A stretch of DNA of 64,000 nucleotides from an uncultured Chloroflexia bacterium (GTDB lineage: Bacteria; Chloroflexota; Anaerolineae; JAAYZQ01). Below the pieces are notes generated by a model. That model was not told the origin of the DNA and did not search any database. It saw only the letters and a program-made list of their open reading frames with translations. Position 1 is the stretch's first letter, and each line of letters opens with the position of its first letter. Positions 26,822 through 47,132 of this stretch are shown piece after piece. A program made the translations under genes and the position numbers. The stretch is taken from NCBI GenBank assembly GCA_963783445.1, contig CAWANP010000008.1, forward strand, positions 14,986 through 78,985, written 5' to 3'.

Positions 26822-27220
26822 TTGCGCCCAATTTGGTGATGTATACGATGGTGAGGAAATGTTATGGGCGAACGGGCTACTGTGTCACTGTATCACTGTC
26901 CCTGAGTGTGCCCTCAGCTTTACGTTCCCCCATTCTGATTGGCGCCGAAGCCGAACAGTTTGCCGATGGCAGATGCACTCTGGGTGAGTCTATGGTATAA
27001 TGGACCCTGCACTTTCCATAGCATAGGATTTCGGGACAGACTGTGGTCATGCCTGGAATGACAGATGAAGCAAGTTCCCTGATCCATACCAGACTCTACC
27101 ATGCCCGTAGAAAGATGAAGCACCACATAGCGCGAAAGAGCGGGTCCAGTCATCGTGAAGAGCAGGACTGGCCCCCGCCATCAGCGCCAGCCCGCAACCT
27201 CGCTGGCACAGGCTGTGCAA

Positions 27221-27275
27221 TGGACACCTGTACAGGGTTGTCACTGGACACCTGTACAGGTCCAGTACTGTACAA
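27221..27275. repeat. 16-bp direct repeat x2 (TGGACACCTGTACAGG) plus a partial third copy
   Basis: Copies at 27221 and 27245, each containing the palindrome CCTGTACAGG. Confidence 0.7.
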
Positions 27276-27572: not shown

Positions 27573-28382
27573 ATATCAAAAAAGGACCAGAAAACAAGAA
27601 AGATGAAACGCAAAGCGTACGAAAAGGAGTTGGCCAGGCTGGAGGTGGAACTGGTCAAGCTCCAGGGGTAGATCAAGAACGAGGGCCTGAAGGTAGCCGT
27701 TATCTTTGAAGGCCGCAATTCGGCCGGCAAGGGAGGGGTCATCAAGCGCATCACCGACCGGCTCAGTCCCCGCGTTGCCCGGGTAGTTGCCCTGCCCGCG
27801 CCGACGGAGAAGGAAAGGACGCAGTGGTATTTCCAGCGTTATGTACCCCACCTGCCATCGGCCGGCGAGATGGTGCTCTTTGACCGGAGCTGGTACAACC
27901 GGGCCGGAGTAGAACGGGTGATGGGCTTCTGCACCGATGAGCAGTACCAGGAGTTCATGGGTACGGTCAACGGCTTTGAGCTGTCCCTGACCCGTTCGGG
28001 GACGACGCTGATCAAGTACTGGCTGGACATCGAGGACGAGACACAGGAAGAGCGATTCGAGCAGCGCATTGAGGACCCGCGCCGCCGCTGGAAGCTGAGC
28101 CCCATGGACCTGGAGGCGCGTTCCCGGTGGGTGGACTATTCCAAGACGCGGGATGCGATGCTGATGCACACTAGCACGGCCCACGCGCCGTGGTACGTCG
28201 TCGATACCAATGTCAAACGGCATGCCCGCCTGAACATCATCAGACACCTGCTGAGCCAGGTCCCCTACGAAGATCTGACGCCCGAACTGTTGGAGTTTCC
28301 ACCGCGGCAGGAAGCCGGGGACTATACACGTCCCGATTTCTCCAAGTCCAATGTCACACTTGTTCCGGCCGCGTATCCGTGA
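27573..28382 (+). pseudogene. ppk2: Polyphosphate kinase 2 (class I) with in-frame TAG at 27669 and apparent ATA start
   Basis: ELVKLQG*IK, FEGRNSAGKGG (Walker A), WYFQRY, FDRSWYNRAG, WKLSPMD, HAPW in one frame. Confidence 0.85.
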
Positions 28383-28637: not shown

Positions 28638-30425
28638 ATGCCAAAATCGATGCTACGCATGTTTGGAATCACCACCATGTTCAAGGGCAGGTTGGTGCTC
28701 TCGCAGGTTCTGCTGTTCCTGTCGGCACTAACCACCATCGGCTTTGCCACACTGACCCAGGGGCTGGTCAACCAGGGGATTGAGGCTGGTGACCCGCGAA
28801 CTCTTTTGAATATCGCCGTCTGGATGTTCGTGCTGGCGGTGATCGCCGGGCTGTGCATGGCTGGGGCAGCCGCCCTGGCAGTCTTTTTCTCCCAGGGAAC
28901 CTCGTACATGATCCGGACCAGACTGTACAAGAAGCTCCAGACCTTCTCCTTTGCCAACTATGACCGATTCTCCACAGGCAGGTTGATGGTCAATCTAAAC
29001 TCTGATGCGATCAATGTCCAGAATGGGATGCTCTGGGCTCTCATGCTGGGACTGTACGCGCCCTTTATGATCCTGTGCACGCTGGTACTGGTCATCATCA
29101 ATACACGGGAGCTGCTGTGGTTGCTGCTGGTGGTGATCGCCGTCGTTCTGGGTACCATGTTTCTCCTCATCCCTGCCGTCTTTCGGGCCTACGAGAACCG
29201 TCAAAAACGGCTCGACGACCTGAACAGTACGCTGCAGGAGGACGTGACCGGTATACAGGTGGTCAAGGCCTTTGTGCGCGAAGACTATGAGATCGAGCGC
29301 TTTAGCAAGCGATCCGATGCCATGCGCGTGCCGGCCTATGGCGCAGCCTGGCGGGTCGCCTTTCTCTCGCCCCTGCTCACCGGACTCGGCCAATTGGCCA
29401 TGCTCTCGGGGGTACTCGTCGGCGGAATGCAGGTACTGAACAATACGGGTCTGAACGTGGGGCAGGTGTTCGCCTTCACCCAGTACCTTTCCCTCACTGT
29501 CGCCCCCCTGGCCATGTTGGCTATCGTCATTCCCATGGTCCTGCGCGGCGACACGTCGGCCGAGCGCATCCTGGAAGTGTACGACAGCGTCCCTGCCGTA
29601 CAGGACCAAGAAGGCGCCCATGCTCTCGATCCAGAAACGGTCAAGGGCCACATTGCCTTCGAGAACGTGTCCTTTGCCTTCCAGCGACCGGATGGCGAAC
29701 TGGATCCCCCGGTGTTGAAAAACATCGACCTCGTCATCAAACCGGGCCAGCAGGTGGGATTTCTGGGTGCGACCGGCGCCGGCAAGTCAGCCCTGGTCAA
29801 CCTGATCCCGCGCTTCTACGACGTCACCGAGGGACGAATCACCATCGACGGTATCGACGTGCGCGACATCCCCCAGGACAACCTGCGCGACATCGTGGGC
29901 ATTGCCCTGCAAGAGGCGGTACTCTTTAAGGGTGACATGCGCTTCAACCTTAAGTTCGGAAATCCCGAGGCGGAGGATGGCGTCATGTTCAACGCGGCCA
30001 AGGCGGCCGACTCCTGGGGTTTTGTTAACCATCTTCCTGAAAAGTGGGAGGCGCCGGTGGCCAGGCGGGGCTACAACTTTTCCGGTGGCCAGCGCCAGCG
30101 CCTGTCGATCAACCGAGCCCTGACACCAGAACCCAAGATCCTGATCCTGGACGACAGCACGAGTGCCCTGGACGCTTCTACCGAGGGTCGCGTGCAGGCA
30201 GAGATCCCCGAGTTTACGCACGGCAGTACGACACTGTACGTCGCCCAGCGCATCAGCGCCGTGATCGAACTGGACAACATCGTGCTCCTGCAGAACGGGG
30301 AAATCGTGGCCATGGGTACCCACGAAGAGTTGCTACAGAGCAGCCCGCTTTACCAGGAAATCTACGAGTCCCAGCTGGGTGGTGCGGTCACGGCTGGAGT
30401 GGGTTTGGAGGAGGTGCCAGCATGA
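28638..30425 (+). CDS. ABC exporter half-transporter (TMD+NBD), degenerate-site subunit of a heterodimer
   Basis: GATGAGKS, FSGGQRQR, ILDDSTS (Glu to Asp), VAQR (His to Gln). Confidence 0.92.
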   Translation: MPKSMLRMFGITTMFKGRLVLSQVLLFLSALTTIGFATLTQGLVNQGIEAGDPRTLLNIAVWMFVLAVIAGLCMAGAAALAVFFSQGTSYMIRTRLYKKLQTFSFANYDRFSTGRLMVNLNSDAINVQNGMLWALMLGLYAPFMILCTLVLVIINTRELLWLLLVVIAVVLGTMFLLIPAVFRAYENRQKRLDDLNSTLQEDVTGIQVVKAFVREDYEIERFSKRSDAMRVPAYGAAWRVAFLSPLLTGLGQLAMLSGVLVGGMQVLNNTGLNVGQVFAFTQYLSLTVAPLAMLAIVIPMVLRGDTSAERILEVYDSVPAVQDQEGAHALDPETVKGHIAFENVSFAFQRPDGELDPPVLKNIDLVIKPGQQVGFLGATGAGKSALVNLIPRFYDVTEGRITIDGIDVRDIPQDNLRDIVGIALQEAVLFKGDMRFNLKFGNPEAEDGVMFNAAKAADSWGFVNHLPEKWEAPVARRGYNFSGGQRQRLSINRALTPEPKILILDDSTSALDASTEGRVQAEIPEFTHGSTTLYVAQRISAVIELDNIVLLQNGEIVAMGTHEELLQSSPLYQEIYESQLGGAVTAGVGLEEVPA

Positions 30426-32297
30426 CGGCAGCAACAGCTACAGCAAACAACAAGTCACTCAGTGCACAAGGAAAAGACAAAGGACAGCAGCGCCGCCATC
30501 AAAGAGAAGAGCACTAGCGGCGCGACCCTGCGGCGGTTGCTGGAGTACATGGCCGGTGGAGAGTCCCGGGGCAAGTTCATCGGGGGGATCCTCGTCCGCG
30601 TGGTGGCCCTGCTCGGCCTGACGGCCATGCCCTTTGTCATCGGCCAGGGGACCAACGTCATCAGCGACCCGGATGGCACCACTGCAGAGCTACTGCAGTG
30701 GGCGATAATCGGGGTCATTGCGGGTGCTGTCTACCTGGCGGGGAGCTTTTTTGCCGATCGAATATTCTCCGACCTGGCGACCAAGGCACTCAGCAAGCTC
30801 CAGATCCATCTATTCTCCCATATGCAGTCCCTGTCGATGGGCTTTTTCTACAGGACGCCTGTGGGCGAGATCCTGAGCAGGGTAACCAACGACGCGGAGG
30901 CCGTGGCGCTGTTCTACGAGTCGGCAGTCGGCCAACTCGTACGCGCGGTCCTGCAGATCCTCATGATTCTGGTCGTGATGTTCGCCATCCAATGGCAGTT
31001 GACCCTCGTCGCCCTGTTCGTCGTACCGGTGATGCTGCTCTCGATGTATGTGATTTCGCAGGTCTCCACACCCGCGTTTGCCATGCTTCAGGAGCAGCTG
31101 GGGGAGACCAGCGGTTTCCAGGAAGAAACCCTGGCCGGGCACAAGGTGATCATCAGCAAACGGCGCCAGGACTGGTCCGACGCAGAAAACGAAGCCAACG
31201 CCGCCGAAGTGTTTCAGACCGGCAGCAGAGCCTTCTTTACCTCGCTCATGCAGTATCCGCTAACGCTGAGCCTGAGCTACGTCCAGGTCGTCCTCGTCAT
31301 GGCCGCCGGCGGATTGATGGTGATCGCGGGAGTCTCGACGCTGGGCGTCGTGATGGCTTTTTCCGGCTATGTGGCCCTGCTGACATCGCCCCTGTCGCAG
31401 ATAGCCAACCTGGTTTCGAATGCACTCAACGCGGCGGCCGGTGGCGAGCGAATATTCGAGGTCATCGACCAGGTGCCAGACATCGAAGACGCGCCCGACG
31501 CCGTTGACTATGAGTTCAAGGGCGGGCACATCCAGTTCATCGACGTCGACTTTGGCTACGTTCCCGGGCAAAAGATCCTGCGCAACAACAACTTTGACGT
31601 CCAGCCCGGCGAAAGCATCGGTATCTGCGGCCCCACGGGCGCGGGCAAGAGCACGATCATCAACATCCTGACCCGCTACTATGACGTGGACAGCGGCACC
31701 ATCCTCATCGATGGCCAGAACCTGGGCCAACTGACACGGGATAGTCTGCGCAAGCAGATCGGTGCAGTCCTACAGGAAGCGTTCCTGTTCACCGACACGG
31801 TGATGAACAACCTGAAATATGCCCGCAAAGGGGCCACCGACGAGGACTGCATCGAGGCAGCCAAGAAGGCCAACGCCCACGACTTTATCGTGCACCTGCC
31901 CCAGGGCTACGACACGATGCTGACCGAGCGCGGGGCCAACCTCAGCCAGGGGCAGCGGCAGATGATCACCATCGCCCGGGCCATGGTGGCCGACCCCAAG
32001 ATCATGATCCTGGACGAGGCCACCAGCAACGTGGACACCCGGACCGAAAAGCTGATCCAGGAGGGCTTGAGGAACCTGATGGAGGGCAAGACTAGCTTTT
32101 CCATCGCCCACCGGCTGGCCACCATCCGAGACTCGCACCGGATCATGGTCGTCAACGGCGGCGAGATCGAAGAGATGGCATCGCACGATGAGCTGATGGC
32201 CGAGCGAGGCTTCTACTATGCCCTGTACATGAGCCAGTTCAAGGGCAAGGCTCCAGCCGGCTCCGAAGAGTCGGACGTGGACTTTGTGAGTACCTAG
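30422..32297 (+). CDS. ABC exporter half-transporter, consensus-site subunit; probable frameshift near 30445-30480 (ATG 30422 overlaps upstream stop)
   Basis: GPTGAGKS, LSQGQRQ, ILDEATS, IAHRL; main ORF 30462-32297. Confidence 0.9.
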
Positions 32298-32300
32298 ATA

Positions 32301-32347
32301 AGATTGTGTTGGGGTGGGGTAGGCGCTGCCCCACCCCAACACAATCT
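32301..32347. terminator. Long perfect hairpin after ABC operon
   Basis: AGATTGTGTTGGGGTGGGG...CCCCACCCCAACACAATCT. Confidence 0.75.
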
Positions 32348-32432
32348 GAAGATACGCACATCTTTCAAGCCTGTGACTATTGCCCTGATTCGACGACCTC
32401 CTTGATTCCCCTCTGACAGTCGGAGTAGCCAG

Positions 32433-32462
32433 TTGACACTAGGCAGCTGAGTAGTGTATACT
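32433..32462 (+). promoter_or_regulatory. sigma70 promoter for the channel/DUF2252 genes
   Basis: TTGACA-18bp-TATACT. Confidence 0.55.
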
Positions 32463-32496
32463 GTGTACCGTCGAATAGTCCTGAAAAGAGTGTTTC

Positions 32497-33633
32497 GTGA
32501 ACCAAGAACCGGCGGTCCACAGTACCACACTTCGACCGGCAGTCTGCGTGATACTGGCTCTTACACTCGCTACTGCCCTAGCCAATGTGGCCTACGCCCT
32601 GTCGCCAGAAGCTGATGGTCAGATTACTCAGGACGAGCAGCCCCTGCGCGTGGTGACCAAAGAGATCGAACCCTTTGTCATCAAGGACGGCGACCGGCTC
32701 ACCGGGTTCAGCATCGACCTGTGGAATGAGATTGCCCTTCTAACTGGCCTCGCTTTCGAGTACATCGAGGTGGAGTCGGTTGGCGAGCAGTTGGAGGCTG
32801 TGGAGCAGGGGCAGGCCGATGTGGGCATTGCCGCCATCAGCATAACGGCCAAGCGCGAGGAAGCGCTTGATTTCTCGCATCCCTACTACAACTCTGGATT
32901 GCAGGTCATGACGGCCACAAGTGCCAAAACGCGCCTACTCACAGTGCTGGCCAATGTGCTGTCCTCCAGGCTACTACCTGTCCTCGGGGTCATGGCCCTA
33001 TTCATCGTGATCGCCGGTCACCTCGTCTGGCTGTTCGAGCGCGGGGACAACCCGGACTTTCCAAGGGAGTACCTGCCAGGGGTGTGGGCGGGTATCTGGT
33101 GGGCGTCGGTCTCGGTCACAACCGTTGGCTACGGCGACCTGAAGGTCCGGCGGGTGCTAGGCCGGATGCTGGGGATCGTGTGGATGTTCTTCGGCCTGGT
33201 TCTTATTGCCGGTTTCACAGCCACAGTGACCGCTGAACTCACTGTCGCTCAGTTCACCTCCACGATTCAGGACGCCGACGACCTGCGCGGGCATCGGGTG
33301 GCCACGGTTGAGGGTACCACCTCAGCCGAGTACTTGGCCAACCAGCGCATCCCCTACGTCGGCGTGGAGGACATCGAGAGCGCGTATGCTATGCTTTACG
33401 GCGGGGCGATCGATGCCATCGTCTATGACGCACCGGTTTTGGCTCACTATGCGTCCACCACGGACGAATATCGATTCTTCCTGGTGGGGGCGCCCATCAA
33501 GGAGGAGAACTATGGCATCGCCCTGCCTCCGGAAAGTCCCCATGAGGAGTTGATCAACCAAGCCCTCCTGGAACTGATGGAGAATGGCACCTACGACGAG
33601 TTGCAGAGAACCTGGTTTGGAATCGAAAAGTAG
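32497..33633 (+). CDS. GluR0-like ligand-gated K+ channel (split amino-acid-binding domain + pore with TTVGYGD)
   Basis: EPFV...GFSIDLW, ISITAKREEALDFSHPY (S1), TM1, WWASVSVTTVGYGD filter, TM2, GTTS...YDAPVL...YGIA (S2). Confidence 0.88.
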   Translation: MNQEPAVHSTTLRPAVCVILALTLATALANVAYALSPEADGQITQDEQPLRVVTKEIEPFVIKDGDRLTGFSIDLWNEIALLTGLAFEYIEVESVGEQLEAVEQGQADVGIAAISITAKREEALDFSHPYYNSGLQVMTATSAKTRLLTVLANVLSSRLLPVLGVMALFIVIAGHLVWLFERGDNPDFPREYLPGVWAGIWWASVSVTTVGYGDLKVRRVLGRMLGIVWMFFGLVLIAGFTATVTAELTVAQFTSTIQDADDLRGHRVATVEGTTSAEYLANQRIPYVGVEDIESAYAMLYGGAIDAIVYDAPVLAHYASTTDEYRFFLVGAPIKEENYGIALPPESPHEELINQALLELMENGTYDELQRTWFGIEK

Positions 33634-33683
33634 CTAGACCCACTGTGGACGACCTGCCAGATTGCCAAGAAAGGAAACGGCCC

Positions 33684-35105
33684 ATGACAGAGGACATACA
33701 AAACTCACTAAGCCAGTCCCGTTCAGATCGCAGAGAAGCGGGCAAAGCGCTTCGTGAGAAGGCGCCGCGTAGCAGCCACGGAAGCTGGGCGCCCGCCGTC
33801 GACCGGCCGGATCCCATCGGCCTGCTACAGGCCCAGGATGAGGGCCGTATCGAGCACCTGCTGCCCATCAAGTACGGCCGCATGCTCGAGTCGCCCTTTG
33901 CTTTTCTGCGCGGCTCGGCGGTGGTGATGGCTGCCGATCTGGCCGCCACACCCGTCACAGGCCTGAAGGCCGTACTATGTGGCGACGCCCATTTGTCCAA
34001 TTTCGGCCTGTTTGCCACACCGGAGCGCCAACTCGTTTTCGACATCAATGACTTTGACGAAAGCTATCCAGGTCCCTGGGAGTGGGACCTCAAGCGGCTG
34101 GCAGCCAGCGCCGTAGTGGCCGGCCGCGAGAATGGGTTCAGCGAAAAGACCTGCCGGCGGATGGCGGTTACCATTACCGAGACCTATCGCACCGCCATGG
34201 AGCGCTTTAGCCAGATGCACGTCCTGGATGTGTGGTACTACCACGTGGATGCGGAGGCGGTTCTGGCCGTCTTTGAAACAACTTCCTCGCGAAAAGCGGA
34301 GAAACACGCTCAGAAACTGATCAAGAAGGCACGCTCCCGAACACAGGAGCAGACCATGGAAAAGCTCACCCGAGTCGAAGCGGGACAGCGACGGATCATC
34401 AGTAATCCGCCACTGCTGGTGCCTCTGCGTGAAATGGGCCTTGAACAGATTCTGAATGACGAGGATCGGCGCCAGATGAGGGAGAAGGCCGTCGAAGACA
34501 ATTGGGCCCAATACCTGGACAGCCTGCCAGCCGAGCGGCGCTACCTCTTGCAGCAGTTCCGGTTGGTGGATGCCGCCCTGCGGGTGGGGGGGGTGGGCAG
34601 TGTGGGCACCCGTTGCTCGATCGTGCTCCTGGAGGGAAGGGGTGGAGATGACTATCTGCTGCTACAGCTCAAGGAGGCCGGTTCTTCAGTTTTGGAACAA
34701 TATGTGGACAGGCGCGGCTCAATGCAACAGGCGGAACGGGTGGTGACTGGACAGCGGCTTATGCAGGCCTCCAGCGACATCTTTCTTGGGTGGCACAGGA
34801 GCACAGTCTCGGACCGGGACTATTACTGGCGCCAGCTCAAGGATATGAAAGGCTCGGCCGACGTGGGAGCTATGGACGAAGAAACCTTCACGACCTACGT
34901 GGCATTGTGTAGCTGGTGCCTGGCCCGCGCCCACGCGCGGACCGGCGAAGAAACCAGCATTCTGGGCTACATGGGCAAGAATGACACTTTCCCCAAGGCC
35001 ATCGCCGATTTTGCCGTGGCCTATGCCGACCAGACCGAGCGCGACTACCAATCGCTGGTGGAAGCGGTCAAGTCCGGGCGCGTAGCGGCCGAAACTGGCG
35101 TGTAA
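33684..35105 (+). CDS. DUF2252 family protein (kinase-like fold)
   Basis: YGRMLESPFAFLRG, CGDAHLSNFG, FDINDFDE, WEWDLKRL, GVGSVGTR, LQLKEA, LARAHARTG. Confidence 0.9.
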   Translation: MTEDIQNSLSQSRSDRREAGKALREKAPRSSHGSWAPAVDRPDPIGLLQAQDEGRIEHLLPIKYGRMLESPFAFLRGSAVVMAADLAATPVTGLKAVLCGDAHLSNFGLFATPERQLVFDINDFDESYPGPWEWDLKRLAASAVVAGRENGFSEKTCRRMAVTITETYRTAMERFSQMHVLDVWYYHVDAEAVLAVFETTSSRKAEKHAQKLIKKARSRTQEQTMEKLTRVEAGQRRIISNPPLLVPLREMGLEQILNDEDRRQMREKAVEDNWAQYLDSLPAERRYLLQQFRLVDAALRVGGVGSVGTRCSIVLLEGRGGDDYLLLQLKEAGSSVLEQYVDRRGSMQQAERVVTGQRLMQASSDIFLGWHRSTVSDRDYYWRQLKDMKGSADVGAMDEETFTTYVALCSWCLARAHARTGEETSILGYMGKNDTFPKAIADFAVAYADQTERDYQSLVEAVKSGRVAAETGV

Positions 35106-35413
35106 GTCGGGACGAGGACCCGCTGATGTTGTCGCTTGCGTTTCTGTCTTTTGCGGTCAGCCGCCAGGTACAGACAGCGCACCACATTGAGGGTCATCAA
35201 GCGCCAGTAGGCAACAACGAAGGTTCGCGGTGAGCAGCCTTTGACAGATCCTTCGCGGACTCGGGACAAGCTCAGGACATGCTTTCGCGCCCTGATAGGC
35301 GCGAGAATACCAAGAAGAACGGCACCAAAGTGCCCACTACGAACGGGTACTGTAGTTTACTGTTAATGCAGCGCATTTGAGTTATCACATGATCTGGGAA
35401 GGAAAAGCCTAGC

Positions 35414-37849
35414 ATGGCGCACGTTTCGCACAAACTATCCAATTCTGTTGAAGGCGCACTGGCCGGGGGAGGCGATCCGGCGACCTCACCTCTGTATGTC
35501 TTTGGGCCTTTTCTCAGGCTGATCGTCGTCGGCGGGGTGGCTGCCGTAACCTTTGGGACCACCATCTGGCTGGTGGTCTTTACCATCGCCATGGTGTCGG
35601 CAATGTATCGCCTGGTGATGCTGTGGGTGACCGACGGCAGTGGCGGAACCGGCCTGAGCGAGGAGGAGTTCGGGGGCTGGGCGGCCAAGGTCAACGCTGC
35701 AATCACTTTTGTGGAGTATACTCTGACCTTCCTGGTGAGCATGGCCGCCCTGGTCACGTTCCTCGCCGACCGCCTGCCCATGCTGAACGAGTCGGTCTTG
35801 GGCATCCAGTACCGGACCCTGGTGGCCATTCTGCTGAGCCTCGCCATCGGCTATCTGGTCAACCGCGGACCCAAAACCTCGGCCTTTGTCTTTGGTCCGG
35901 CCACGGCGGGTGTCCTGATCCTGCTGTGGGCCATGATCGGCGCCACAATCTGGCAGTATGGCCTTCATCTGCCTACCCTCAATCTGCAGGCATTCACGGG
36001 CGAGTACCTTCACTTTACCTTTGGGGGCTTTACCCGCATGCTGGCCGTGATGACGGGCATCGAGGTCTTTGCCAACCTGGTGGCTGCCTACGGGGGACAG
36101 CCCCGCCAGCGCAGCAACAAGGCATTCGGCAGCTTGTTGATCATTATGGGCACCACAGCGGTGACGATGTTGATTGTCGGACCGGCCATCGCCAACCTCT
36201 CGGATCCCACCGACCTGCACGTCTCAGTATTCACCCAGACGATGGACCAGCTCTTGCCGGCACCGCTGCCCTACCTGGGCACGCTGGTCAGTGTACTGGT
36301 CCTGGGATCGGCTGCCGCGGCCAGCTCCCAGGGATTGCAGAATCTGGCGCTGGGCCTAAAAAATCGGAACTATGTCCCCGCTTCCCTGGGCCAACAGAAT
36401 CGCTTTGGCGTGGCCGACAAGCCGGTGTGGCTGGAGGTGGGTCTGGTGACGCTCATCTTTTTGGTGGCGGGCACGAACGAAGAGACCTACCTGGCCATCT
36501 ATGCCGCAGGCGTATTCGTCCTTTTGAGCATGACCGGTTGGGCGGCCTCCAAGCGCCTGGTACGGGAACTGCGCCAGGGTTTCTCGGCATCGTACATGGC
36601 CATGCTGGTTGGTACGGTACTGGCAGCAAGTATCACCACAGCCGCCACGGTAGTCATCTTTCAGGAGCGATTCTTTGAGGGCGCCTGGACCTATTTTGTT
36701 TTCATCCCTGTACTCTTTGGGGCCTTTACCTACGTTCGCGGGCGGCTTGGCGCTCCCAGTTCTCTGGCAGAGCAGCTAGGCGAACTGGAAGGGGCCATGC
36801 TGGGCGGCTTTGGCTTTGGACAATCCTTTGCCGCTGAGGCTGCTGGCATGGCTGGTACGGTCAGCCTGCCGGCTACTTTTTCTTTCCAGGAGGGGGAGGC
36901 TGTTATTGCGGCTCCCAGCCACCTCTGGCAGCAGGCTCGCGGGACACCCGACCACGTCCTGGTGACCCTGGATGGTTCGGACTTTGCGGAACAGGCACTT
37001 CCGGCAGCAGAATCGATCTGCATAGCCTTCAATGCTCGGTTGACGCTGGTTTCCGTGCTCTCGAAGCAACCTCGTTTCTGGCCCTTTGGCCGCTCCAAGG
37101 AGCCAGGCAGCAGGCGCCGGGAGACCGAAGCCTATCTGAAGGCCGTGGCAAAACGGATGCAGGCTAAGGAGATTGACACAGCCTACTCGGTGCTAAGAGG
37201 GCCGGTAGTCAAGTCGGTCAACCAACTCATGCAGGAACAGTCCATTGACATGTCCATCATCTGCACGCACGGCCGGTCTGGGATACAGCGCTGGGTGCTG
37301 GGCAGTGTGGCAACCGACCTGATCCAAAGCGTGACCGAGCCGGTGCTTATCATCCATCCTGCTCCTGAAGGCCCACCGCCGGTGCCGGATTTTGGGAAGC
37401 TGCTGGTGGCGCTGGACGGTTCCGAGTTCGCAGAGCGGGTCCTGCCCATGGTACGAGCCTCGGCCATGTATGGAAGCGTTGTCCTGCTGTTGCGGGTGCC
37501 GGAGGTACCCAGACCGCAGCGGTTCGGCACCATGACGGAGGAGATCGAGCGGCTAAGAGCTGAGGCCGAAGCCGAAGCCTCCCAGTACCTGGAGGGAATT
37601 GCGGCCGCCCTGCGGCAAGAGGGGATCGAGACTCACGTGCTGGTCGCCGGGTCGCGACCGGCGGAGAAGATCATCCAGGTAGCCGAGGTGGAGGACGTCG
37701 ACGTGATCATGCTCTCCACCCATGGCCAGGGGGAAATGCAGGGACTGCTGATGGGCAGCGTGGCCGACCGCGTGGTGCAACAGACCCACCGCCCGGTCCT
37801 GCTGGCGCCCATTCAGGAACGAAGATCGTCTGAATCTTCAGAATCATGA
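35414..37849 (+). CDS. APC-fold KimA/KUP-like transporter fused to two universal stress protein (USP) domains
   Basis: TM1 GDPATSPLY, GSGG, VEYTLT, MTGIEVFAN; C-terminal LVTLDGSDFAE...THGRSG...LGSVA and LVALDGSEFAE...THGQG...MGSVA. Confidence 0.82.
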   Translation: MAHVSHKLSNSVEGALAGGGDPATSPLYVFGPFLRLIVVGGVAAVTFGTTIWLVVFTIAMVSAMYRLVMLWVTDGSGGTGLSEEEFGGWAAKVNAAITFVEYTLTFLVSMAALVTFLADRLPMLNESVLGIQYRTLVAILLSLAIGYLVNRGPKTSAFVFGPATAGVLILLWAMIGATIWQYGLHLPTLNLQAFTGEYLHFTFGGFTRMLAVMTGIEVFANLVAAYGGQPRQRSNKAFGSLLIIMGTTAVTMLIVGPAIANLSDPTDLHVSVFTQTMDQLLPAPLPYLGTLVSVLVLGSAAAASSQGLQNLALGLKNRNYVPASLGQQNRFGVADKPVWLEVGLVTLIFLVAGTNEETYLAIYAAGVFVLLSMTGWAASKRLVRELRQGFSASYMAMLVGTVLAASITTAATVVIFQERFFEGAWTYFVFIPVLFGAFTYVRGRLGAPSSLAEQLGELEGAMLGGFGFGQSFAAEAAGMAGTVSLPATFSFQEGEAVIAAPSHLWQQARGTPDHVLVTLDGSDFAEQALPAAESICIAFNARLTLVSVLSKQPRFWPFGRSKEPGSRRRETEAYLKAVAKRMQAKEIDTAYSVLRGPVVKSVNQLMQEQSIDMSIICTHGRSGIQRWVLGSVATDLIQSVTEPVLIIHPAPEGPPPVPDFGKLLVALDGSEFAERVLPMVRASAMYGSVVLLLRVPEVPRPQRFGTMTEEIERLRAEAEAEASQYLEGIAAALRQEGIETHVLVAGSRPAEKIIQVAEVEDVDVIMLSTHGQGEMQGLLMGSVADRVVQQTHRPVLLAPIQERRSSESSES

Positions 37850-38103
37850 TCCGGAGCAGGCGCACACCGTAAAACTTAATCCTGTCAACCTGCGACTGCG
37901 CTCAGGACATGCTTCATTTCACTCAGGATGGCGGCTGCCCGAAAGCAGGATTCTTTCACCTGGAGTGGCGCCCCGGGCCATGGATCACTCAGATGTGCGC
38001 TGAAGCGTATCCTGAGCGAAGCCAAAGAGCGCGCAATACAGACGATGCCCGTCTCATTGCCCAAATTGACGCGAGAGGAATCCAAAGTAGGAGGCATTGG
38101 ACT

Positions 38104-39438
38104 ATGACCCTGATCGTACGGGGCGCCCTGTGGTTTGGACTCTACTTGTTCTTGATCCTGCTGCCGCTGGTTACAGCAGCCATCTCCGCCCCGGCCCGCG
38201 TGGCGCCGTCCTTCAGCGTAGAGCTGGGAGTGGGCGCTGGCTTTGTCGGCTTGGCGCTCATGTGCCTGGAGTTTGCGCTAATATCGCGAACCAAGGCAGC
38301 GGCCCAGGCATTCGGAGAGGACGCCCTCCAACTCTTTCACAACCTGATGGGCATGGTGGCTCTGGGTTTCCTGGTGGCCCACCCCACCCTACTCATCATC
38401 TCCGGCTACCCCGCCGACTGCTGGCTCAATCCCTTTGCCGGTTGTGCGAACACTGCGACGCGGACGGCATCCCTGGCGCTCTATGTCTTGGTTCTCTTGG
38501 TTGGGCTCTCGATCTGGCGCAAGAAACTCGGGATCAAGTACGAGCTGTGGCAGGTCACCCATGGCCTGTTCGCACTCTATGTGCTTGTCGCGGCCATGGT
38601 CCACATCTTTGTCCTTGGCCGGTACACCACCACCCCGATCATGAAGGCCGTGTGGCTAGTCTATGCGATCCTGGTCACGGTACTGCTATTGTACTACAAG
38701 ATCCTGATGCCCATTCTCAACTGGAACAAGACGTGGGAGGTTGTTGAAAACCGAGAGGAACGAGGGGACTCACGCACACTGATACTAAAGCCGGTGGGCC
38801 ACAAGGGCTATTCCTTCCAACCGGGCCAGTTTGCCTGGCTGAAAACAGGTCGCACGCCCTTTGGAGTTGGACAGCACCCCATCTCCATGTCATCCTGCGG
38901 GGATGTTGAACCGGGCGGCCAGGTGGCCTTCACCATCAAAGACCTGGGCGACTGGTCGGGCCAGGAGGTGCCCGCTCTCAAACCTGGCGATACCCTGTGG
39001 TTGGACGGCCCGCACGGCGTCTTTTCCATGGATCGCGAGCAGGGGATGGGCTATGTCTTTGTCGGGGGCGGGGTCGGCATCACCCCGCTCTACTCAATGC
39101 TGCAAACGATGGTCAAGCGGGAGGACGTGCGGCCGGTACTGCTCTTCTATGGCGGGTCCGACTGGGAAAGCCTGACCTTTCGCGAGGAACTGGACGACCT
39201 GGCAGGGAAGATGAACCTGCAGATCATCCACGTTCTGTCACATCCACCCGAGGGATGGGAAGGGGAGAGCGGCTATGTGACCGGCGAGGTCATGAAGAGT
39301 TATCTGCCCAAGCAGTACAAACGATTCATCTACTTTGTTTGCGGCCCAGAACCGCTGATGGATGCCATGGAGCAAGCACTGCCCGAACTTGGGGTCCCGC
39401 CCGAGAACGTCCACACAGAACGCTTTGACATGGTCTAG
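38104..39438 (+). CDS. Ferric-reductase-like TM + FAD/NAD(P)H-binding flavocytochrome (bacterial NOX-like)
   Basis: TM histidines (FHNL, AHP, THG, VHI); FQPGQF, HPISMS, DGPHG, GGGVGITP, CGP, terminal ERF. Confidence 0.85.
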   Translation: MTLIVRGALWFGLYLFLILLPLVTAAISAPARVAPSFSVELGVGAGFVGLALMCLEFALISRTKAAAQAFGEDALQLFHNLMGMVALGFLVAHPTLLIISGYPADCWLNPFAGCANTATRTASLALYVLVLLVGLSIWRKKLGIKYELWQVTHGLFALYVLVAAMVHIFVLGRYTTTPIMKAVWLVYAILVTVLLLYYKILMPILNWNKTWEVVENREERGDSRTLILKPVGHKGYSFQPGQFAWLKTGRTPFGVGQHPISMSSCGDVEPGGQVAFTIKDLGDWSGQEVPALKPGDTLWLDGPHGVFSMDREQGMGYVFVGGGVGITPLYSMLQTMVKREDVRPVLLFYGGSDWESLTFREELDDLAGKMNLQIIHVLSHPPEGWEGESGYVTGEVMKSYLPKQYKRFIYFVCGPEPLMDAMEQALPELGVPPENVHTERFDMV

Positions 39439-39453
39439 GAGGAGGGAACGAAT

Positions 39454-39555
39454 ATGCATCATCTCGTAGTCAAGAGCGTTGCCGTTGGCCTGACCATTTT
39501 GTTGATCGTTGCCATCGTGGTCTTTGCCATTCTCGTCAAGGCGCCGGTAGGCTAG
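39454..39555 (+). CDS. 33-aa single-TM microprotein (MHHLVVKSVAVGLTILLIVAIVVFAILVKAPVG)
   Basis: Strong AGGAGGAGG RBS right after the upstream stop; one long hydrophobic helix; below the ORF-track size cutoff. Confidence 0.6.
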   Translation: MHHLVVKSVAVGLTILLIVAIVVFAILVKAPVG

Positions 39556-44117: not shown

Positions 44118-44426
44118 TGATGGCTCCTTTCAGCGTCTCAACATTCTACCATGATTCGGTACTTTGCGGCAAATGGGTCGGAGGCTAGCCGGAGGCCGAG
44201 AAGACACTGTAGCGCTGAAAGCGCACAAAAGTGCGCACTACGAACCAGCGACTCCAGTTACAGCCCTGACGTGGTAGGTGTAAACTGCTGCGATTGGATT
44301 GGCAGCCGGGCTGCTGGAACCTGTTTGGCGCCACGCCCAAGCTGTGGTAAGATGAGTGCAGGAACGCTTGTGTTTGCGTTCGCGCCAGCCAGCGGGGTTT
44401 GCCGCAAGGGCCCCACAGGGAATGAG

Positions 44427-47132
44427 ATGATCGCACCGCTCCTGACCACCAAACTTTACATCCCACCGCCGCGCGCCAACCTGGTGTCGCGCCCTCGTCT
44501 GGTCCAGCGCATGGATGAGGGGCTGCGTCTGCGCCACAAGCTGACCCTCGTCTCCGCCCCGGCGGGCTTTGGCAAAACGACACTGATCACTGAGTGGATT
44601 CTCGGCAGCCCACGAGAGATCGCCTGGCTGTCCGTGGATGAGGGGGACAATGATCCCGTACAGCTGCTCCACTACCTGATTGCCGCACTGCAACCGGTCG
44701 ATGGCCGCATCGGAGGAACCGTCCGGCAGATCCTGCAGGCTGCCCAACTACCGCCCACCCAAAGCCTGATCACGGTATTGGTCAACGACATCAGCGCCGC
44801 GGCCAGCGCCTTGACGCTCGTACTGGACGACTACCAGCTCATCACTTCACCAGAGGCACACCGGGTCGTGGCCTTTCTCCTGGAACACCAGCCGCCCAAT
44901 ATGCACCTGATCGTCGGCACACGACAGGACCCCCCTCTGCCCCTTCCGCGTTTGCGCGCCCGGAGCCAGGTGACCGAAGTCCGGGAGCAAGAGCTGCGTT
45001 TCACGGTAGAGGAGACGGCGGACTTTTTCGCCAAGACGATGGACCTAGCCCTCTCGTCCGAGGCCGTGGAAGCCATTGAGTCGCGTACCGAGGGGTGGGT
45101 CACGGGCCTGCAACTGGCCGCGGTTGCCGCCCTTTCCTACGAGCAGGCGCCATCGCATCCAGTCTCCTCGGAGGAACCAGATGCAGCGAGATCCGAAGCC
45201 CTCATTTCCGCTTTCACCGGGGATGATCGCTACGTCATGGACTATCTCGTTGCAGAGGTACTCCAGCGGCAGCCAGAGGCGATGCGCAGCTTTTTGCAGC
45301 AAACGGCCATCGTAGACCGGCTCACCGCCTCCTTGTGCAATGCGCTGACAGGGAGAGAAGACGGCCAAGCAGTCCTGGACCAGCTAGAGGGTACGAACCT
45401 ATTTCTGATCTCCATCGACCACCGGCGCGAATGGTACCGGTACCATCGCTTGTTTGCCGAGGTGCTGCGCACAATGCTCGACCCGCAAGAGCAGATGATT
45501 CTGCAGCAGAAGGCTGCGAATTGGTACGAGGGCCACGGCTATATGCGCCAAGCCATCAAACACGCGCTGGCCTACGCCTCGGCCTCCGGTGATCTGGATG
45601 AGGCCGAGCGGCTGATCTGCCACGCCGCGGACGAGACGATCCACTCGGGCAGTCTACTGACCGTGGGCAGATGGCTGGACTCGCTGCCGGACGAACGGGT
45701 GCGAGCCAGTGGAGGGCTGGCTACCTACAAAGGCTGGGTCCTGGTCTTGACCGGCGAGATAGACCGGGCGGAGGAGTATGCTCATGCGGCCGAACTCTGC
45801 TTCAAAAAGGCCGAGGCCCCGGACAAGGACTTGGGCAGGCTCCTGGTCCTGCGTGCCTTCATCGCCGTCTTTGGCCACCAGGACCATAAAGCTGCCATCG
45901 AGCTGGCCGCAGATGCCCTCCAGATGATGGGCGAGGACCAGGCACACTGGCGCGTGATCGCGCTTTGGGCCATGGCTGAGTCGCAGGAGCGGACGACCAA
46001 CATCACGGAGGCCATAGCCACCCTGTACAAAGCGCACAGGACCCGACACACGCTGGGCAAATTGATGTTTTCAGTCACCGTGGATCTTTTTTTGGCAACG
46101 GCCCTGTACCTACACGGGCAGCGGCAGGAAGCGGTTGCTGTTTGTACAGATGCCCTCGAGCAGCATAGCGACGAGTCAGGCCGGCCATCACCGGTAGCGG
46201 GGATGATAATCAGTTGGCTGGGCATGCTCCACTATGAGGCGAACCAGCTTGAGCAGGCGCGCGCGTACCTGGAACAGGGCCTGGCCCTTTGCCGCCAGCT
46301 GGGGTTGGATGCCAGCCTCCTGTTCGCGCACGGTTATCTGGCGCCAACCCTCTGGGCACAGGGAGACACCAAAGGTGCCCTGGTAGCCCTGTACAAGGCG
46401 CGCGAACTCGCCACGCAGACCGGCTTGACCGAGGCTGATCCCTTCCTCGCCCGGGAGGTCAACATGCGCCTGCAGCAGGGCGACGTTTCTTTCGCCCAGC
46501 AGTGGGCACAACAGTTAGGGCTGTCGCCCGACGGCGACCCCGACTACCTGGGCATCGAACGGCACGTGGCCTACGCCCGCCTGCTGCTGGCCCAGGGCCG
46601 GCTGTCGGACGCCCAGCGCTGGTTGGCCCGCCTGGAAAGCTTTGCGCTGGAAAGAGGTCTCTATCGCTGGCTTCTCACCGTCCACATCCTGCAGGCGCTG
46701 GCTGCCGCGCGCATGGGAGATCGCCCCTCCTCTCGCGCGCACCTCTCCGAAGCAGTACGGATCGGCGCCCCCGAAGGCTTTTACCGGGCCTTCCTGGACG
46801 AGGATGAGCAGGTTCTGGCCCTGTTGCCCGATGTCCGCGAGACTGCCCCGGCCTTTGTTGACCGACTGAGAGAATTCGTCGGAAGCTTCGAACTCAGTCC
46901 TGAACCTGGCAGCCAGCCAGCGGCGGCCCAAGCCCTGGTCGAAGCCCTTAGCGAGCGCGAGCTGGAGGTATTGGCTTTGATCGCCGCCGGGTTCTCCAAC
47001 CGCGAGATTGCCCAGAAGCTCTTTATCGCTCAGGGCACGGTCAAGAGGCACATCAACAACATCTATGGCAAAATGGAGGTTCGCAGCCGGACGCAGGCGG
47101 TAGCGCGGGCGCGAGAACTCGACCTGCTGTAG
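44427..47132 (+). CDS. MalT-like STAND ATPase/TPR/LuxR-HTH transcriptional regulator
   Basis: LLTTKLYIPP start, APAGFGKT, VLDDY, TEGWVTGLQL, YRYHRLF, C-terminal LSERELEVL...SNREIA...TVKRHINNIYGK. Confidence 0.93.
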   Translation: MIAPLLTTKLYIPPPRANLVSRPRLVQRMDEGLRLRHKLTLVSAPAGFGKTTLITEWILGSPREIAWLSVDEGDNDPVQLLHYLIAALQPVDGRIGGTVRQILQAAQLPPTQSLITVLVNDISAAASALTLVLDDYQLITSPEAHRVVAFLLEHQPPNMHLIVGTRQDPPLPLPRLRARSQVTEVREQELRFTVEETADFFAKTMDLALSSEAVEAIESRTEGWVTGLQLAAVAALSYEQAPSHPVSSEEPDAARSEALISAFTGDDRYVMDYLVAEVLQRQPEAMRSFLQQTAIVDRLTASLCNALTGREDGQAVLDQLEGTNLFLISIDHRREWYRYHRLFAEVLRTMLDPQEQMILQQKAANWYEGHGYMRQAIKHALAYASASGDLDEAERLICHAADETIHSGSLLTVGRWLDSLPDERVRASGGLATYKGWVLVLTGEIDRAEEYAHAAELCFKKAEAPDKDLGRLLVLRAFIAVFGHQDHKAAIELAADALQMMGEDQAHWRVIALWAMAESQERTTNITEAIATLYKAHRTRHTLGKLMFSVTVDLFLATALYLHGQRQEAVAVCTDALEQHSDESGRPSPVAGMIISWLGMLHYEANQLEQARAYLEQGLALCRQLGLDASLLFAHGYLAPTLWAQGDTKGALVALYKARELATQTGLTEADPFLAREVNMRLQQGDVSFAQQWAQQLGLSPDGDPDYLGIERHVAYARLLLAQGRLSDAQRWLARLESFALERGLYRWLLTVHILQALAAARMGDRPSSRAHLSEAVRIGAPEGFYRAFLDEDEQVLALLPDVRETAPAFVDRLREFVGSFELSPEPGSQPAAAQALVEALSERELEVLALIAAGFSNREIAQKLFIAQGTVKRHINNIYGKMEVRSRTQAVARARELDLL

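What the first reader, a model, noticed from the sequence alone, without database searches (positions are those of the whole stretch)
32433..39555. Candidate K+/stress-signalling module: ligand-gated K+ channel, DUF2252 kinase, KimA/KUP-USP transporter, NOX-like oxidase and microprotein
Seen: five consecutive plus-strand genes after a strong hairpin and a new promoter, preceded by a decayed ppk2 and an ABC exporter pair. Two are independent predicted K+ pathways (a TVGYGD channel and a KimA/KUP-motif transporter), flanking an uncharacterised kinase-fold protein. Established: polyphosphate chelates K+ and Mg2+; K+ transporters are often controlled by nucleotide-binding domains; NOX-type flavocytochromes move electrons across the membrane and need charge compensation. 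Inference: an undescribed circuit coupling amino-acid sensing, K+ flux or membrane potential, phosphorylation and transmembrane redox, which could give DUF2252 a functional context. Gaps of about 250-300 bp with REP-like repeats mean single-operon status is unproven.
Basis: partly seen in the sequence, partly recalled or inferred. Interest (0 to 1): 0.72.

Follow-up and report, generated by a model that had tools for sequence, protein, structure and literature searches.

The report
KimA-like potassium importer with USP tail
These five genes are not a conserved module; what stands out is a widespread, unnamed relative of the potassium importer KimA that keeps KimA's ion-binding residues but ends in two stress-protein domains, so it likely imports potassium under a different control, and next to it a membrane oxidoreductase that is nearly always followed by a tiny, likely partner, membrane protein.

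Summary
All five genes are real, but the proposed circuit is not supported. In 80 loci of transporter homologues there is no channel, DUF2252 or ppk2, and 45 of 50 such genomes show no DUF2252. The same-genus genome keeps the transporter intact but lacks the channel, DUF2252 and the oxidoreductase at this site.

Two separate units are worth keeping. (1) The 811-aa gene is annotated only as a USP, yet it folds like KimA (Z 38 against at most 30 for amino-acid APCs). Its ten positions matching KimA's K+, H+ and gate residues are invariant in 211 of 211 homologues (nine identical, one D to E). It forms its own clade, about 21% identical to KimA, ends in tandem USP domains and lacks KimA's c-di-AMP arginine. 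It is likely a K+/H+ symporter with different regulation. (2) The SpNOX-like flavocytochrome is followed by a 30-39-aa single-helix ORF in 24 of 30 loci (control 3 of 1898); predicted binding is weakly supported.

The channel is an ordinary GluR0-type receptor. DUF2252 loci do carry small K+ channels more often than background (6 of 85), a loose link only.

The parts
35414..37849 (+). KimA-related KUP-family transporter (membrane domain about residues 1-449) with tandem USP domains (about 513-650 and 660-798); the main finding
   Evidence: No Pfam, NCBIfam or PDB-phmmer hit for the membrane domain. Foldseek and VIA top hits are KimA. The ten KimA-equivalent positions are invariant in 211 of 211 sequences. 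Own clade, support 100/99.
38104..39438 (+). SpNOX-like membrane flavocytochrome (ferric-reductase domain + FAD/NAD(P)H domain), 444 aa, six predicted helices, bis-His pairs H79/H93 and H153/H167
   Evidence: Pfam Ferric_reduct and NAD_binding_1; His pairs; Foldseek top hit SpNOX, TM 0.72-0.74.
39454..39555 (+). 33-aa single-helix membrane microprotein, conserved directly behind the flavocytochrome
   Evidence: 24 of 30 homologous loci against 3 of 1898 control ORFs. Changes by codon position 45/27/84 in six close pairs. No NCBIfam family.
32497..33633 (+). GluR0-type amino-acid-gated K+ channel (split binding domain around an M1-P-M2 pore, filter TTVGYGD)
   Evidence: Pfam SBP_bac_3, Lig_chan, Ion_trans_2; best PDB hit 2pyy, bacterial iGluR binding domain, E 1e-50; motifs.
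33684..35105 (+). DUF2252 kinase-fold protein with intact family motifs; substrate unknown
   Evidence: PF10009 484 bits; motifs present in 69-84 of 85 homologous loci.
32301..32347 (.). Strong single-copy hairpin after the ABC pair
32433..32462 (+). Sigma-70-like promoter match upstream of the channel
   Evidence: 11 of 12 consensus; function untested.
35226..35368 (.). Genome-dispersed intergenic repeat between DUF2252 and the transporter; similarity to the sister genome resumes at 35372
37874..38050 (.). REP-like dispersed repeat between the transporter and the flavocytochrome; the sister genome's deletion starts at 37891
27603..28382 (+). ppk2 with an in-frame TAG at codon 23 (context, not part of a conserved unit)
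   Evidence: further PPK2-like loci on contigs C12 and C3.
28638..32297 (+). Heterodimeric ABC exporter pair (context); second gene has a 5' frame break
   Evidence: a similar second gene (69%) lies near the flavocytochrome gene in G007.

Best explanation
The stretch is a lineage-specific row of three independent units, and its core gene encodes an unnamed KimA-related transporter that likely works as a K+/H+ symporter controlled through its two USP domains. Shown: the units occur separately across genomes; the fold is closest to KimA; D21, Y28, T105, S109, T214 and Y363 (KimA D36, Y43, T121, S125, T230, Y377), E217 (KimA's proton-coupling E233), E101 (KimA D117; E116 in E. coli Kup) and the Y102/N221 pair (KimA Y118/N237) are invariant; KimA's c-di-AMP-contacting R337 is not kept. 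Inferred: K+ binds at D21/T105/Y363, protonation of E217 drives uptake, and the tandem USPs, the first of which superposes on KimA's cytosolic domain, sense an adenine nucleotide and lock or release the Y102-N221 inner gate. Second unit: the SpNOX-like flavocytochrome likely moves electrons from cytoplasmic NAD(P)H through two b-hemes to an outside acceptor, with the 33-aa helix as a likely small subunit. Third unit: the GluR0-type channel and DUF2252 were gained or lost as a block; DUF2252 belongs to a shuffled accessory gene pool (SulP, MFS, DUF1269, MscS, small K+ channels).
For: Non-conservation: (63 of 80 loci had at least 3.2 kb upstream and 63 of 80 at least 1.8 kb downstream). Transporter: VIA Z 38.4/37.5/35.8 to KimA against at most 29.8 to amino-acid APCs. 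HH-align family vs KimA-like E 2.8e-24, vs Kup E 0.04. Residue map; invariance. Between the two same-genus genomes the membrane domain has 72 synonymous and 17 non-synonymous codon differences. The own genome (90% complete) has no Kup, TrkH, KdpA or canonical KimA match. Flavocytochrome pair: (the held-out Nonomuraea ORF scores 26.5 bits, above every non-self control of 1096, best 19.1). Predicted complex 0.53 against best control 0.00, 'weak support'; runs agree in at least 88% of contacts, partner pLDDT at least 75. The mark was reached by 116 of 157 solved and 2 of 215 mismatched pairs, but at 0.60 or under by only 18 solved pairs and both mismatches.
Against: No transport assay. 149 of 449 columns are at least 99% conserved, so invariance of the ten positions is less striking than it looks. 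Another APC clade (L210, L211) also has the TM1 D and Y, the TM3 DY, the TM6 E and the TM10 Y, so part of the signature is not unique to K+ carriers. KimA's higher Z includes its cytosolic domain (aligned to model residue 652). The family does not replace KimA: canonical KimA occurs in 32 of 50 family genomes against 33 of 58 relatives without the family (my counts), and TrkH is rare in this class anyway (13 of 61). Both USPs lack the first Gly of the G-2X-G-9X-GS ATP motif (motif recalled). The sister-genome comparison cannot tell insertion here from deletion there, because that genome has also deleted parts of the ABC pair, gltS and the MalT-like gene. The flavocytochrome's HPISM fails the strict NOX FAD filter of PMC5676040.
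Confidence: 0.7

Rival explanations
1. One reading: channel, DUF2252 kinase, transporter, NOX and microprotein form one signalling module coupling amino-acid sensing, K+ flux, phosphorylation and redox.
For: Same strand; two predicted K+ pathways within 5 kb. DUF2252 loci carry small K+ channels above background (6 of 85), one sits beside a KimA-like gene (L181) and four share a KdpA cluster. The flavocytochrome and DUF2252 are neighbours in one other genome (L258).
Against: 0 of 80 transporter loci, 0 of 85 DUF2252 loci and 0 of 4 other GluR0-type loci hold the other partners. DUF2252 is found in only 5 of 50 transporter genomes, never on the same 10 kb. The three phylum-level channel homologues inspected do not show a GYG filter (two read ALATQAE). 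Dispersed repeats sit in both large gaps.
Confidence: 0.05
2. The genes are members of a loosely co-regulated accessory pool, like the MalT-activated MRLGR of Actinoplanes, here perhaps under the MalT-like regulator at 44151-47132. They would share a stress condition without forming one machine.
For: MRLGR-like regions contain DUF2252 (A. missouriensis, Table S4) and ppk2 (passage), with shuffled order. DUF2252 neighbours here are SulP, MFS, DUF1269, MscS, DAGK and holin/phosphodiesterase. A MalT-like gene lies 4.6 kb away and is also eroded in the sister genome.
Against: The published MalT box is not enriched in the window (4 matches, 3.8 expected) and is absent from four of five spacers. The transporter's 80 loci show none of the pool's genes as recurrent neighbours.
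Confidence: 0.15
3. The transporter is a KimA-derived carrier for another solute (NH4+, Na+, Cs+/Rb+, a cationic amino acid or a polyamine), or it exports K+.
For: Only about 21% identity to KimA and a long stem branch. It coexists with canonical KimA. The ESM Atlas look-alikes are labelled APC or amino-acid permease. A nested subgroup has lost several site residues, so the scaffold can change function.
Against: All residues that were essential or affinity-setting in KimA mutagenesis (D36, Y43, E233, Y377, T121, S125; PMC6994465 passages) are kept. The TM1 motif DPATSPLY matches Kup's DIGTSPLY in register.
Confidence: 0.15

Closest known systems
KimA (YdaO) of Bacillus subtilis, K+/H+ symporter of the KUP family (PDB 6S3K, 8B70, 8B71)
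   Same: LeuT/APC fold, top structural hit; D36, Y43, Y118, T121, S125, T230, E233, N237, Y377 kept and D117 as E; a cytosolic alpha/beta domain in the same position.
   Different: About 21% identity to KimA-like proteins and a separate clade; TM1 reads GGGDPATSPLY, not SSDALSSVAY; two canonical USP domains instead of one c-di-AMP domain; R337 not conserved (R in 12 of 211).
Kup of Escherichia coli and the Pfam K_trans family
   Same: D23/E116/E229 equivalents present; TSPLY motif shared in TM1 (equivalence from PMC6994465 passages).
   Different: About 16% identity, no profile match (HH-align E 0.04; PF02705 no hit in the own genome); different C-terminal domain.
GluR0 of Synechocystis and the bacterial iGluR binding domain 2pyy
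   Same: Split amino-acid-binding domain around a K+-type pore with a GYG filter. GluR0 rescues K+-uptake-deficient E. coli and buffers KCl shock (PMC13099474, abstract).
   Different: Rare in this phylum (3 of 400 sampled genomes besides this one); ligand untested.
SpNOX, the bacterial NOX of Streptococcus pneumoniae (PDB 8QT6, 8QQ7)
   Same: Six helices, two bis-His pairs, FAD/NAD(P)H domain, TM-score 0.72-0.74.
   Different: About 20% identity; FAD motif HPISM here (HPFSF in most homologues); a conserved downstream microprotein that I did not find described; acceptor unknown.
MalT-activated MRLGR of Actinoplanes sp. SE50/110 (PMC7567727)
   Same: Shuffled pool of poorly annotated membrane genes; related regions include DUF2252, DUF1269, DAGK, MFS and ppk2.
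   Different: No MalT-box enrichment here. The supplement search found no ferric reductase or universal stress protein annotation, and the Table S4 rows I read list no K+ channel or KimA.

Membership tests
KUP family (KimA/Kup) | LeuT/APC fold, closest to KimA | tested here: met
   Foldseek ranks 1-2 and VIA ranks 1-3 are KimA; model pLDDT 73, pTM 0.59.
KUP family (KimA/Kup) | K+ site D36/Y43/T121/S125/T230/Y377 and proton-coupling E233 | tested here: met
   Mapped by sequence through a bridge protein (L004 to 6S3K); invariant in 211 of 211.
KUP family (KimA/Kup) | Proton-coupled K+ uptake | not testable with these tools
   Needs complementation or a transport assay.
KimA subfamily proper | Falls inside the KimA clade, SSDALSS motif | tested here: not met
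   Separate clade 100/99, KimA-like clade 95/96; motif differs.
KimA subfamily proper | c-di-AMP pocket with R337 | tested here: not met
   A323 here; R in 12 of 211. R337 is not essential for inhibition in KimA (PMC10284832 passages) and the genome has a diadenylate cyclase, so c-di-AMP control is not excluded.
Kup / Pfam K_trans | VFGD/IYGD motif and PF02705 match | tested here: not met
ATP-binding USPs | G-2X-G-9X-G(S/T) motif (recalled) | tested here: inconclusive
   Later G and GS conserved (G771 97%, G781 99%, S782 96%; G620 91%, G630 84%, S631 49%); first G replaced by C or S. Tandem USPs Rv2623 and TTHA0350 match at Z 25.7-26.3.
GluR0-type prokaryotic iGluR | Split S1/S2 binding domain around M1-P-M2 with a TXVGYGD filter | tested here: met
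GluR0-type prokaryotic iGluR | Ligand-gated K+ current | not testable with these tools
   Needs electrophysiology.
Bacterial NOX (Hajjar et al. filters) | [quoted passage not shown] | tested here: met
   H79-X13-H93, H153-X13-H167, GVGITP (filters from PMC5676040 passages).
Bacterial NOX (Hajjar et al. filters) | FAD motif H[PSA]F[TS][LIMV] | tested here: not met
   HPISM here; most homologues read HPFSF, which also fails the last position. It is filed as NOX-like, not NOX.
DUF2252 (PF10009) | Pfam match above cut-off with conserved motifs | tested here: met
   484.6 bits against cut-off 22.3; motifs.
MRLGR-type MalT regulon | TCATCC-N5-GGATGA boxes at promoters | tested here: not met
   a Chloroflexota regulator may use another box.

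The most novel reading that the evidence does not exclude
The 811-aa protein founds a third branch of the KUP family, hidden in databases as 'universal stress protein'. In it tandem USP domains replace c-di-AMP control and gate K+/H+ uptake directly by the cell's ATP or other adenine-nucleotide state, with a site-dead paralogue subgroup as possible regulatory subunits. Separately, a clade of bacterial NOX-like flavocytochromes needs a 30-residue single-helix subunit.
Probability: 0.35. Interest if true: 0.65.

Novelty: new variant of a known kind. Interest (0 to 1): 0.42.

Why it matters
KimA was the structure that defined K+/H+ coupling in the KUP family. A compact, strongly conserved sister clade with the same ion site but a different tail is a natural experiment on how cytosolic domains control these carriers. 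It also gives USP domains, whose targets are mostly unknown, a covalently attached target with a simple growth read-out. It corrects annotation too: the sources name these proteins only as universal stress proteins, so K+ uptake in many Anaerolineae and some Acidobacteriota and Gemmatimonadota is being missed. The microprotein is a short gene, matching no NCBIfam family, that may be a missing subunit of a bacterial NOX-like clade. The five-gene circuit itself should not be pursued.

Tried and rejected
- phmmer of the membrane domain against PDB: 0 hits to E 10. A full-length profile hit only USPs.
- Conserved neighbours of the transporter: none. The top clusters were generic ABC ATPases (14 of 80) and lineage synteny (at most 9 of 80).
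- 'The family replaces KimA': rejected, 32 of 50 against 33 of 58. TrkH and KdpA were not searched in those 50 genomes.
- 'The family is closer to Kup because of TSPLY': rejected by profiles. The tree leaves the deep branching open and flags long-branch joins.
- My tblastn with the channel pore found 0 of 85 DUF2252 loci but missed small channels. The motif scan found 6; three of them were confirmed as Ion_trans_2, and for L118 I submitted the wrong ORF.
- 'The microprotein is the anchor of a cytochrome c': in L258 a diheme-motif cytochrome gene starts at the same place, but its N-terminus was not among the top 12 scores of the microprotein profile, so it stays a lead.
- MalT box: not enriched.
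- Expression: no RNA holder listed, no evidence either way.
- GC and GC3 do not separate the genes (GC3 0.72-0.83).
- Earlier scan findings: no look-alike by sequence; two long word queries were empty.
- Literature: searches (KUP/KimA/USP/APC/Chloroflexota terms; bacterial NOX/small protein terms) listed no paper on this transporter clade or the microprotein. I judged by listings and abstract starts, and the library lacks most subscription journals. DUF2252 appears in 5 papers, once each.
Full report
Observation. The five ORFs, the hairpin, the promoter-like match and the repeat-filled gaps are present as described. Pfam gives: channel SBP_bac_3 + Lig_chan + Ion_trans_2; DUF2252 at 484 bits; for the 811-aa protein only Usp (two stretches) above cut-off; Ferric_reduct + NAD_binding_1; nothing for the 33-aa ORF. 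The upstream ppk2 has an in-frame stop at codon 23, and other PPK2-like loci exist on two contigs. The host is a 7.3-Mb, 90%-complete assembly. I infer an Anaerolineae-type Chloroflexota from the titles of its closest homologues.

Is it a module? No. A scan of species-representative genomes confirmed 360 relatives of the transporter and kept the best 80 (68 titled Chloroflexota and 12 other phyla by my count, some possibly misbinned). In those 80 loci tblastn found the channel in 0, DUF2252 in 0, ppk2 in 0, the microprotein in 0, and one weak flavocytochrome hit (29% over 135 aa, opposite strand). 63 of 80 had at least 3.2 kb upstream and 63 of 80 at least 1.8 kb downstream; no neighbour family recurred beyond lineage synteny. 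In 50 of those genomes DUF2252 was found in 5, on other contigs or 368 kb away. From the other side, 85 DUF2252 loci (80 metagenome contigs, many short, plus 5 relatives) had no GluR0 channel, ppk2, this transporter or flavocytochrome. The four other GluR0-type loci had no module gene, and 1 of 29 other flavocytochrome loci had DUF2252. The same-genus genome G001 is collinear on both sides at 84-94% DNA identity. There, 32297-35371 is replaced by 293 unrelated bases, 37891-39511 is deleted (leaving the 3' half of the microprotein gene) and the ABC pair is eroded, while the transporter is intact. G001 has DUF2252 (46-62%) and a channel (44%) elsewhere. This does not show whether genes were gained here or lost there, but it shows the transporter persists without them.

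A filter-motif scan found K+ channel genes in 6 of 85 DUF2252 loci (0.66 Mb), against 0 of 80 transporter loci (1.27 Mb), 0 of 29 flavocytochrome loci and 3 in the 7.3-Mb own genome. The three I scanned correctly are small Ion_trans_2 proteins, not GluR0. The loci are not independent: two come from one genome and two look related. Recurrent DUF2252 neighbours were SulP (9 loci), MFS (9), DUF1269 (6), MscS (5), holin/phosphodiesterase (5), DAGK (5) and KdpA (4). An earlier scan note led me to PMC7567727 (passages and supplementary Table S4 read): MRLGR-like regions of Micromonosporaceae are shuffled, one contains DUF2252 and related ones contain ppk2. So DUF2252 belongs to a loose membrane/ion gene pool. 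Two papers treat it as a circularly permuted kinase-like fold (one passage each: PMC9758233, bioRxiv 10.64898/2026.09.18.752743). No substrate evidence was found.

The transporter. Its membrane domain has no Pfam, NCBIfam or PDB sequence hit. Yet 1949 of 7992 scored candidates match at E 0.001 or better (a count that may include distant KimA-like proteins). The best 120 are 73-100% identical, and those that carry a source name are called universal stress proteins or, in one case, hypothetical. An unfiltered search shows a compact family with a drop from about 40% identity to KimA-like proteins at 27%. Of 14 long representatives of the family and its degenerate subgroup, 11 have Usp; only one also reaches AA_permease_2. 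The AlphaFold model (pLDDT 73) matches KimA best by Foldseek and by VIA (Z 38.4, rmsd 5.5, 520 aligned, against Z 29.8 for BasC). The KimA alignment runs to model residue 652, so the first USP overlays KimA's cytosolic domain. I mapped KimA residues through a KimA-like bridge protein using the mutagenesis passages of PMC6994465: D36=D21, Y43=Y28, D117=E101, Y118=Y102, T121=T105, S125=S109, T230=T214, E233=E217, N237=N221, Y377=Y363. All ten are invariant in 211 of 211 sequences (120 database proteins, 80 loci, 11 representatives; the sets overlap, and the degenerate subgroup was left out), against 149 of 449 columns at 99% or more. R337, the one membrane residue that grips c-di-AMP (PMC10284832 passages), is A, P or other in 199 of 211. 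A 32-sequence tree puts the family with its degenerate subgroup in one clade (100/99), apart from KimA-like (95/96) and Kup (100/100); deeper order is unresolved. Profiles place it nearest KimA. The own genome shows no Kup, TrkH, KdpA or canonical KimA, which fits a housekeeping K+ role here. Across genomes, however, the family coexists with KimA at background rate (32 of 50 against 33 of 58). Caveat: a different APC clade shares six of the ten positions.

The flavocytochrome and microprotein. The 444-aa protein folds like SpNOX (TM 0.72-0.74, 19-20% identity) and has both bis-His pairs and the NADPH motif, but fails the strict FAD filter of PMC5676040 (passages). A 25-45-aa hydrophobic ORF starts within 70 nt of its stop in 24 of 30 loci spanning 32-100% identity, including this window and Nonomuraea. 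One locus without downstream DNA and two weak matches were left out. The six misses are L125, L275, L277, two alphaproteobacterial plasmids, and L258, where a cytochrome c gene starts at that place. The same rule fires on 3 of 1898 long ORFs of the own genome. Most copies have a purine-rich ribosome-binding site, third codon positions change most, and a profile recognises the held-out Nonomuraea ORF above all controls. The complex prediction passed weakly (0.53 against 0.00; such passes are more often wrong than right unless likely beforehand, which the synteny makes plausible).

The channel is a GluR0-type receptor, a known class (PMC13099474, abstract and opening seen). It is rare in this phylum and has a canonical filter, unlike the two phylum homologues whose filter I could read.

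Verdict. The circuit is not supported. The locus holds one new variant of a known kind (a USP-tailed, KimA-related K+/H+ symporter clade; K+ transport about 0.8, USP-mediated nucleotide control about 0.45, both inferred) and one conserved flavocytochrome-microprotein pair (real gene about 0.9, physical subunit about 0.6). No paper on either was found in the searches named under Tried and rejected.

Noticed in passing
P0134, P0137, P0143, L209:960-3365: A subgroup nested in the transporter family has lost E101, Y102, T105 and N221 (and variably D21, Y28, E217, Y363); L209 and P0137 keep the USP tail. 12 of 149 representatives score best with it. G109 has both an intact (L212) and a degenerate copy on different contigs. 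Possible pseudo-transporter, sensor or changed substrate.
   Followed up: partly
L258:10098-10796 and L257:3303-4382: c-type cytochrome genes follow the flavocytochrome in two of the closer homologous loci: a 232-aa protein with 2 CxxCH in place of the microprotein, and a 359-aa protein with 5 CxxCH after it. These are candidate outside electron acceptors.
   Followed up: partly
L207, L208: Another KimA-related clade (TM1 GVDYFTSYYY) with the TM1 D/Y, TM3 DY and TM6 E, about 22% identical to KimA-like proteins.
   Followed up: partly
L210, L211: APC clade (TM1 YADVGADVY) sharing the TM1 D/Y, TM3 DY, TM6 E and TM10 Y with KimA; possibly another cation carrier.
   Followed up: no
window 44151-47132: MalT-like LuxR regulator; largely deleted in the same-genus genome, like several genes of this locus.
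   Followed up: partly
window 27208-27267: Tandem imperfect 24-nt repeats with ACAGG/CCTGT ends upstream of ppk2; possible operator.
   Followed up: no
L115:8554-9915: A Neur_chan_LBD (pentameric ligand-gated channel) gene lies in the row with the closest DUF2252 homologue (75%), a holin/phosphodiesterase fusion and MscS.
   Followed up: no
L116: In G007 a similar ABC exporter gene (69%), an unknown 262-aa protein, the flavocytochrome (76%) and the microprotein (66%) form a row, suggesting ABC pair + flavocytochrome is the older frame into which other genes came.
   Followed up: partly
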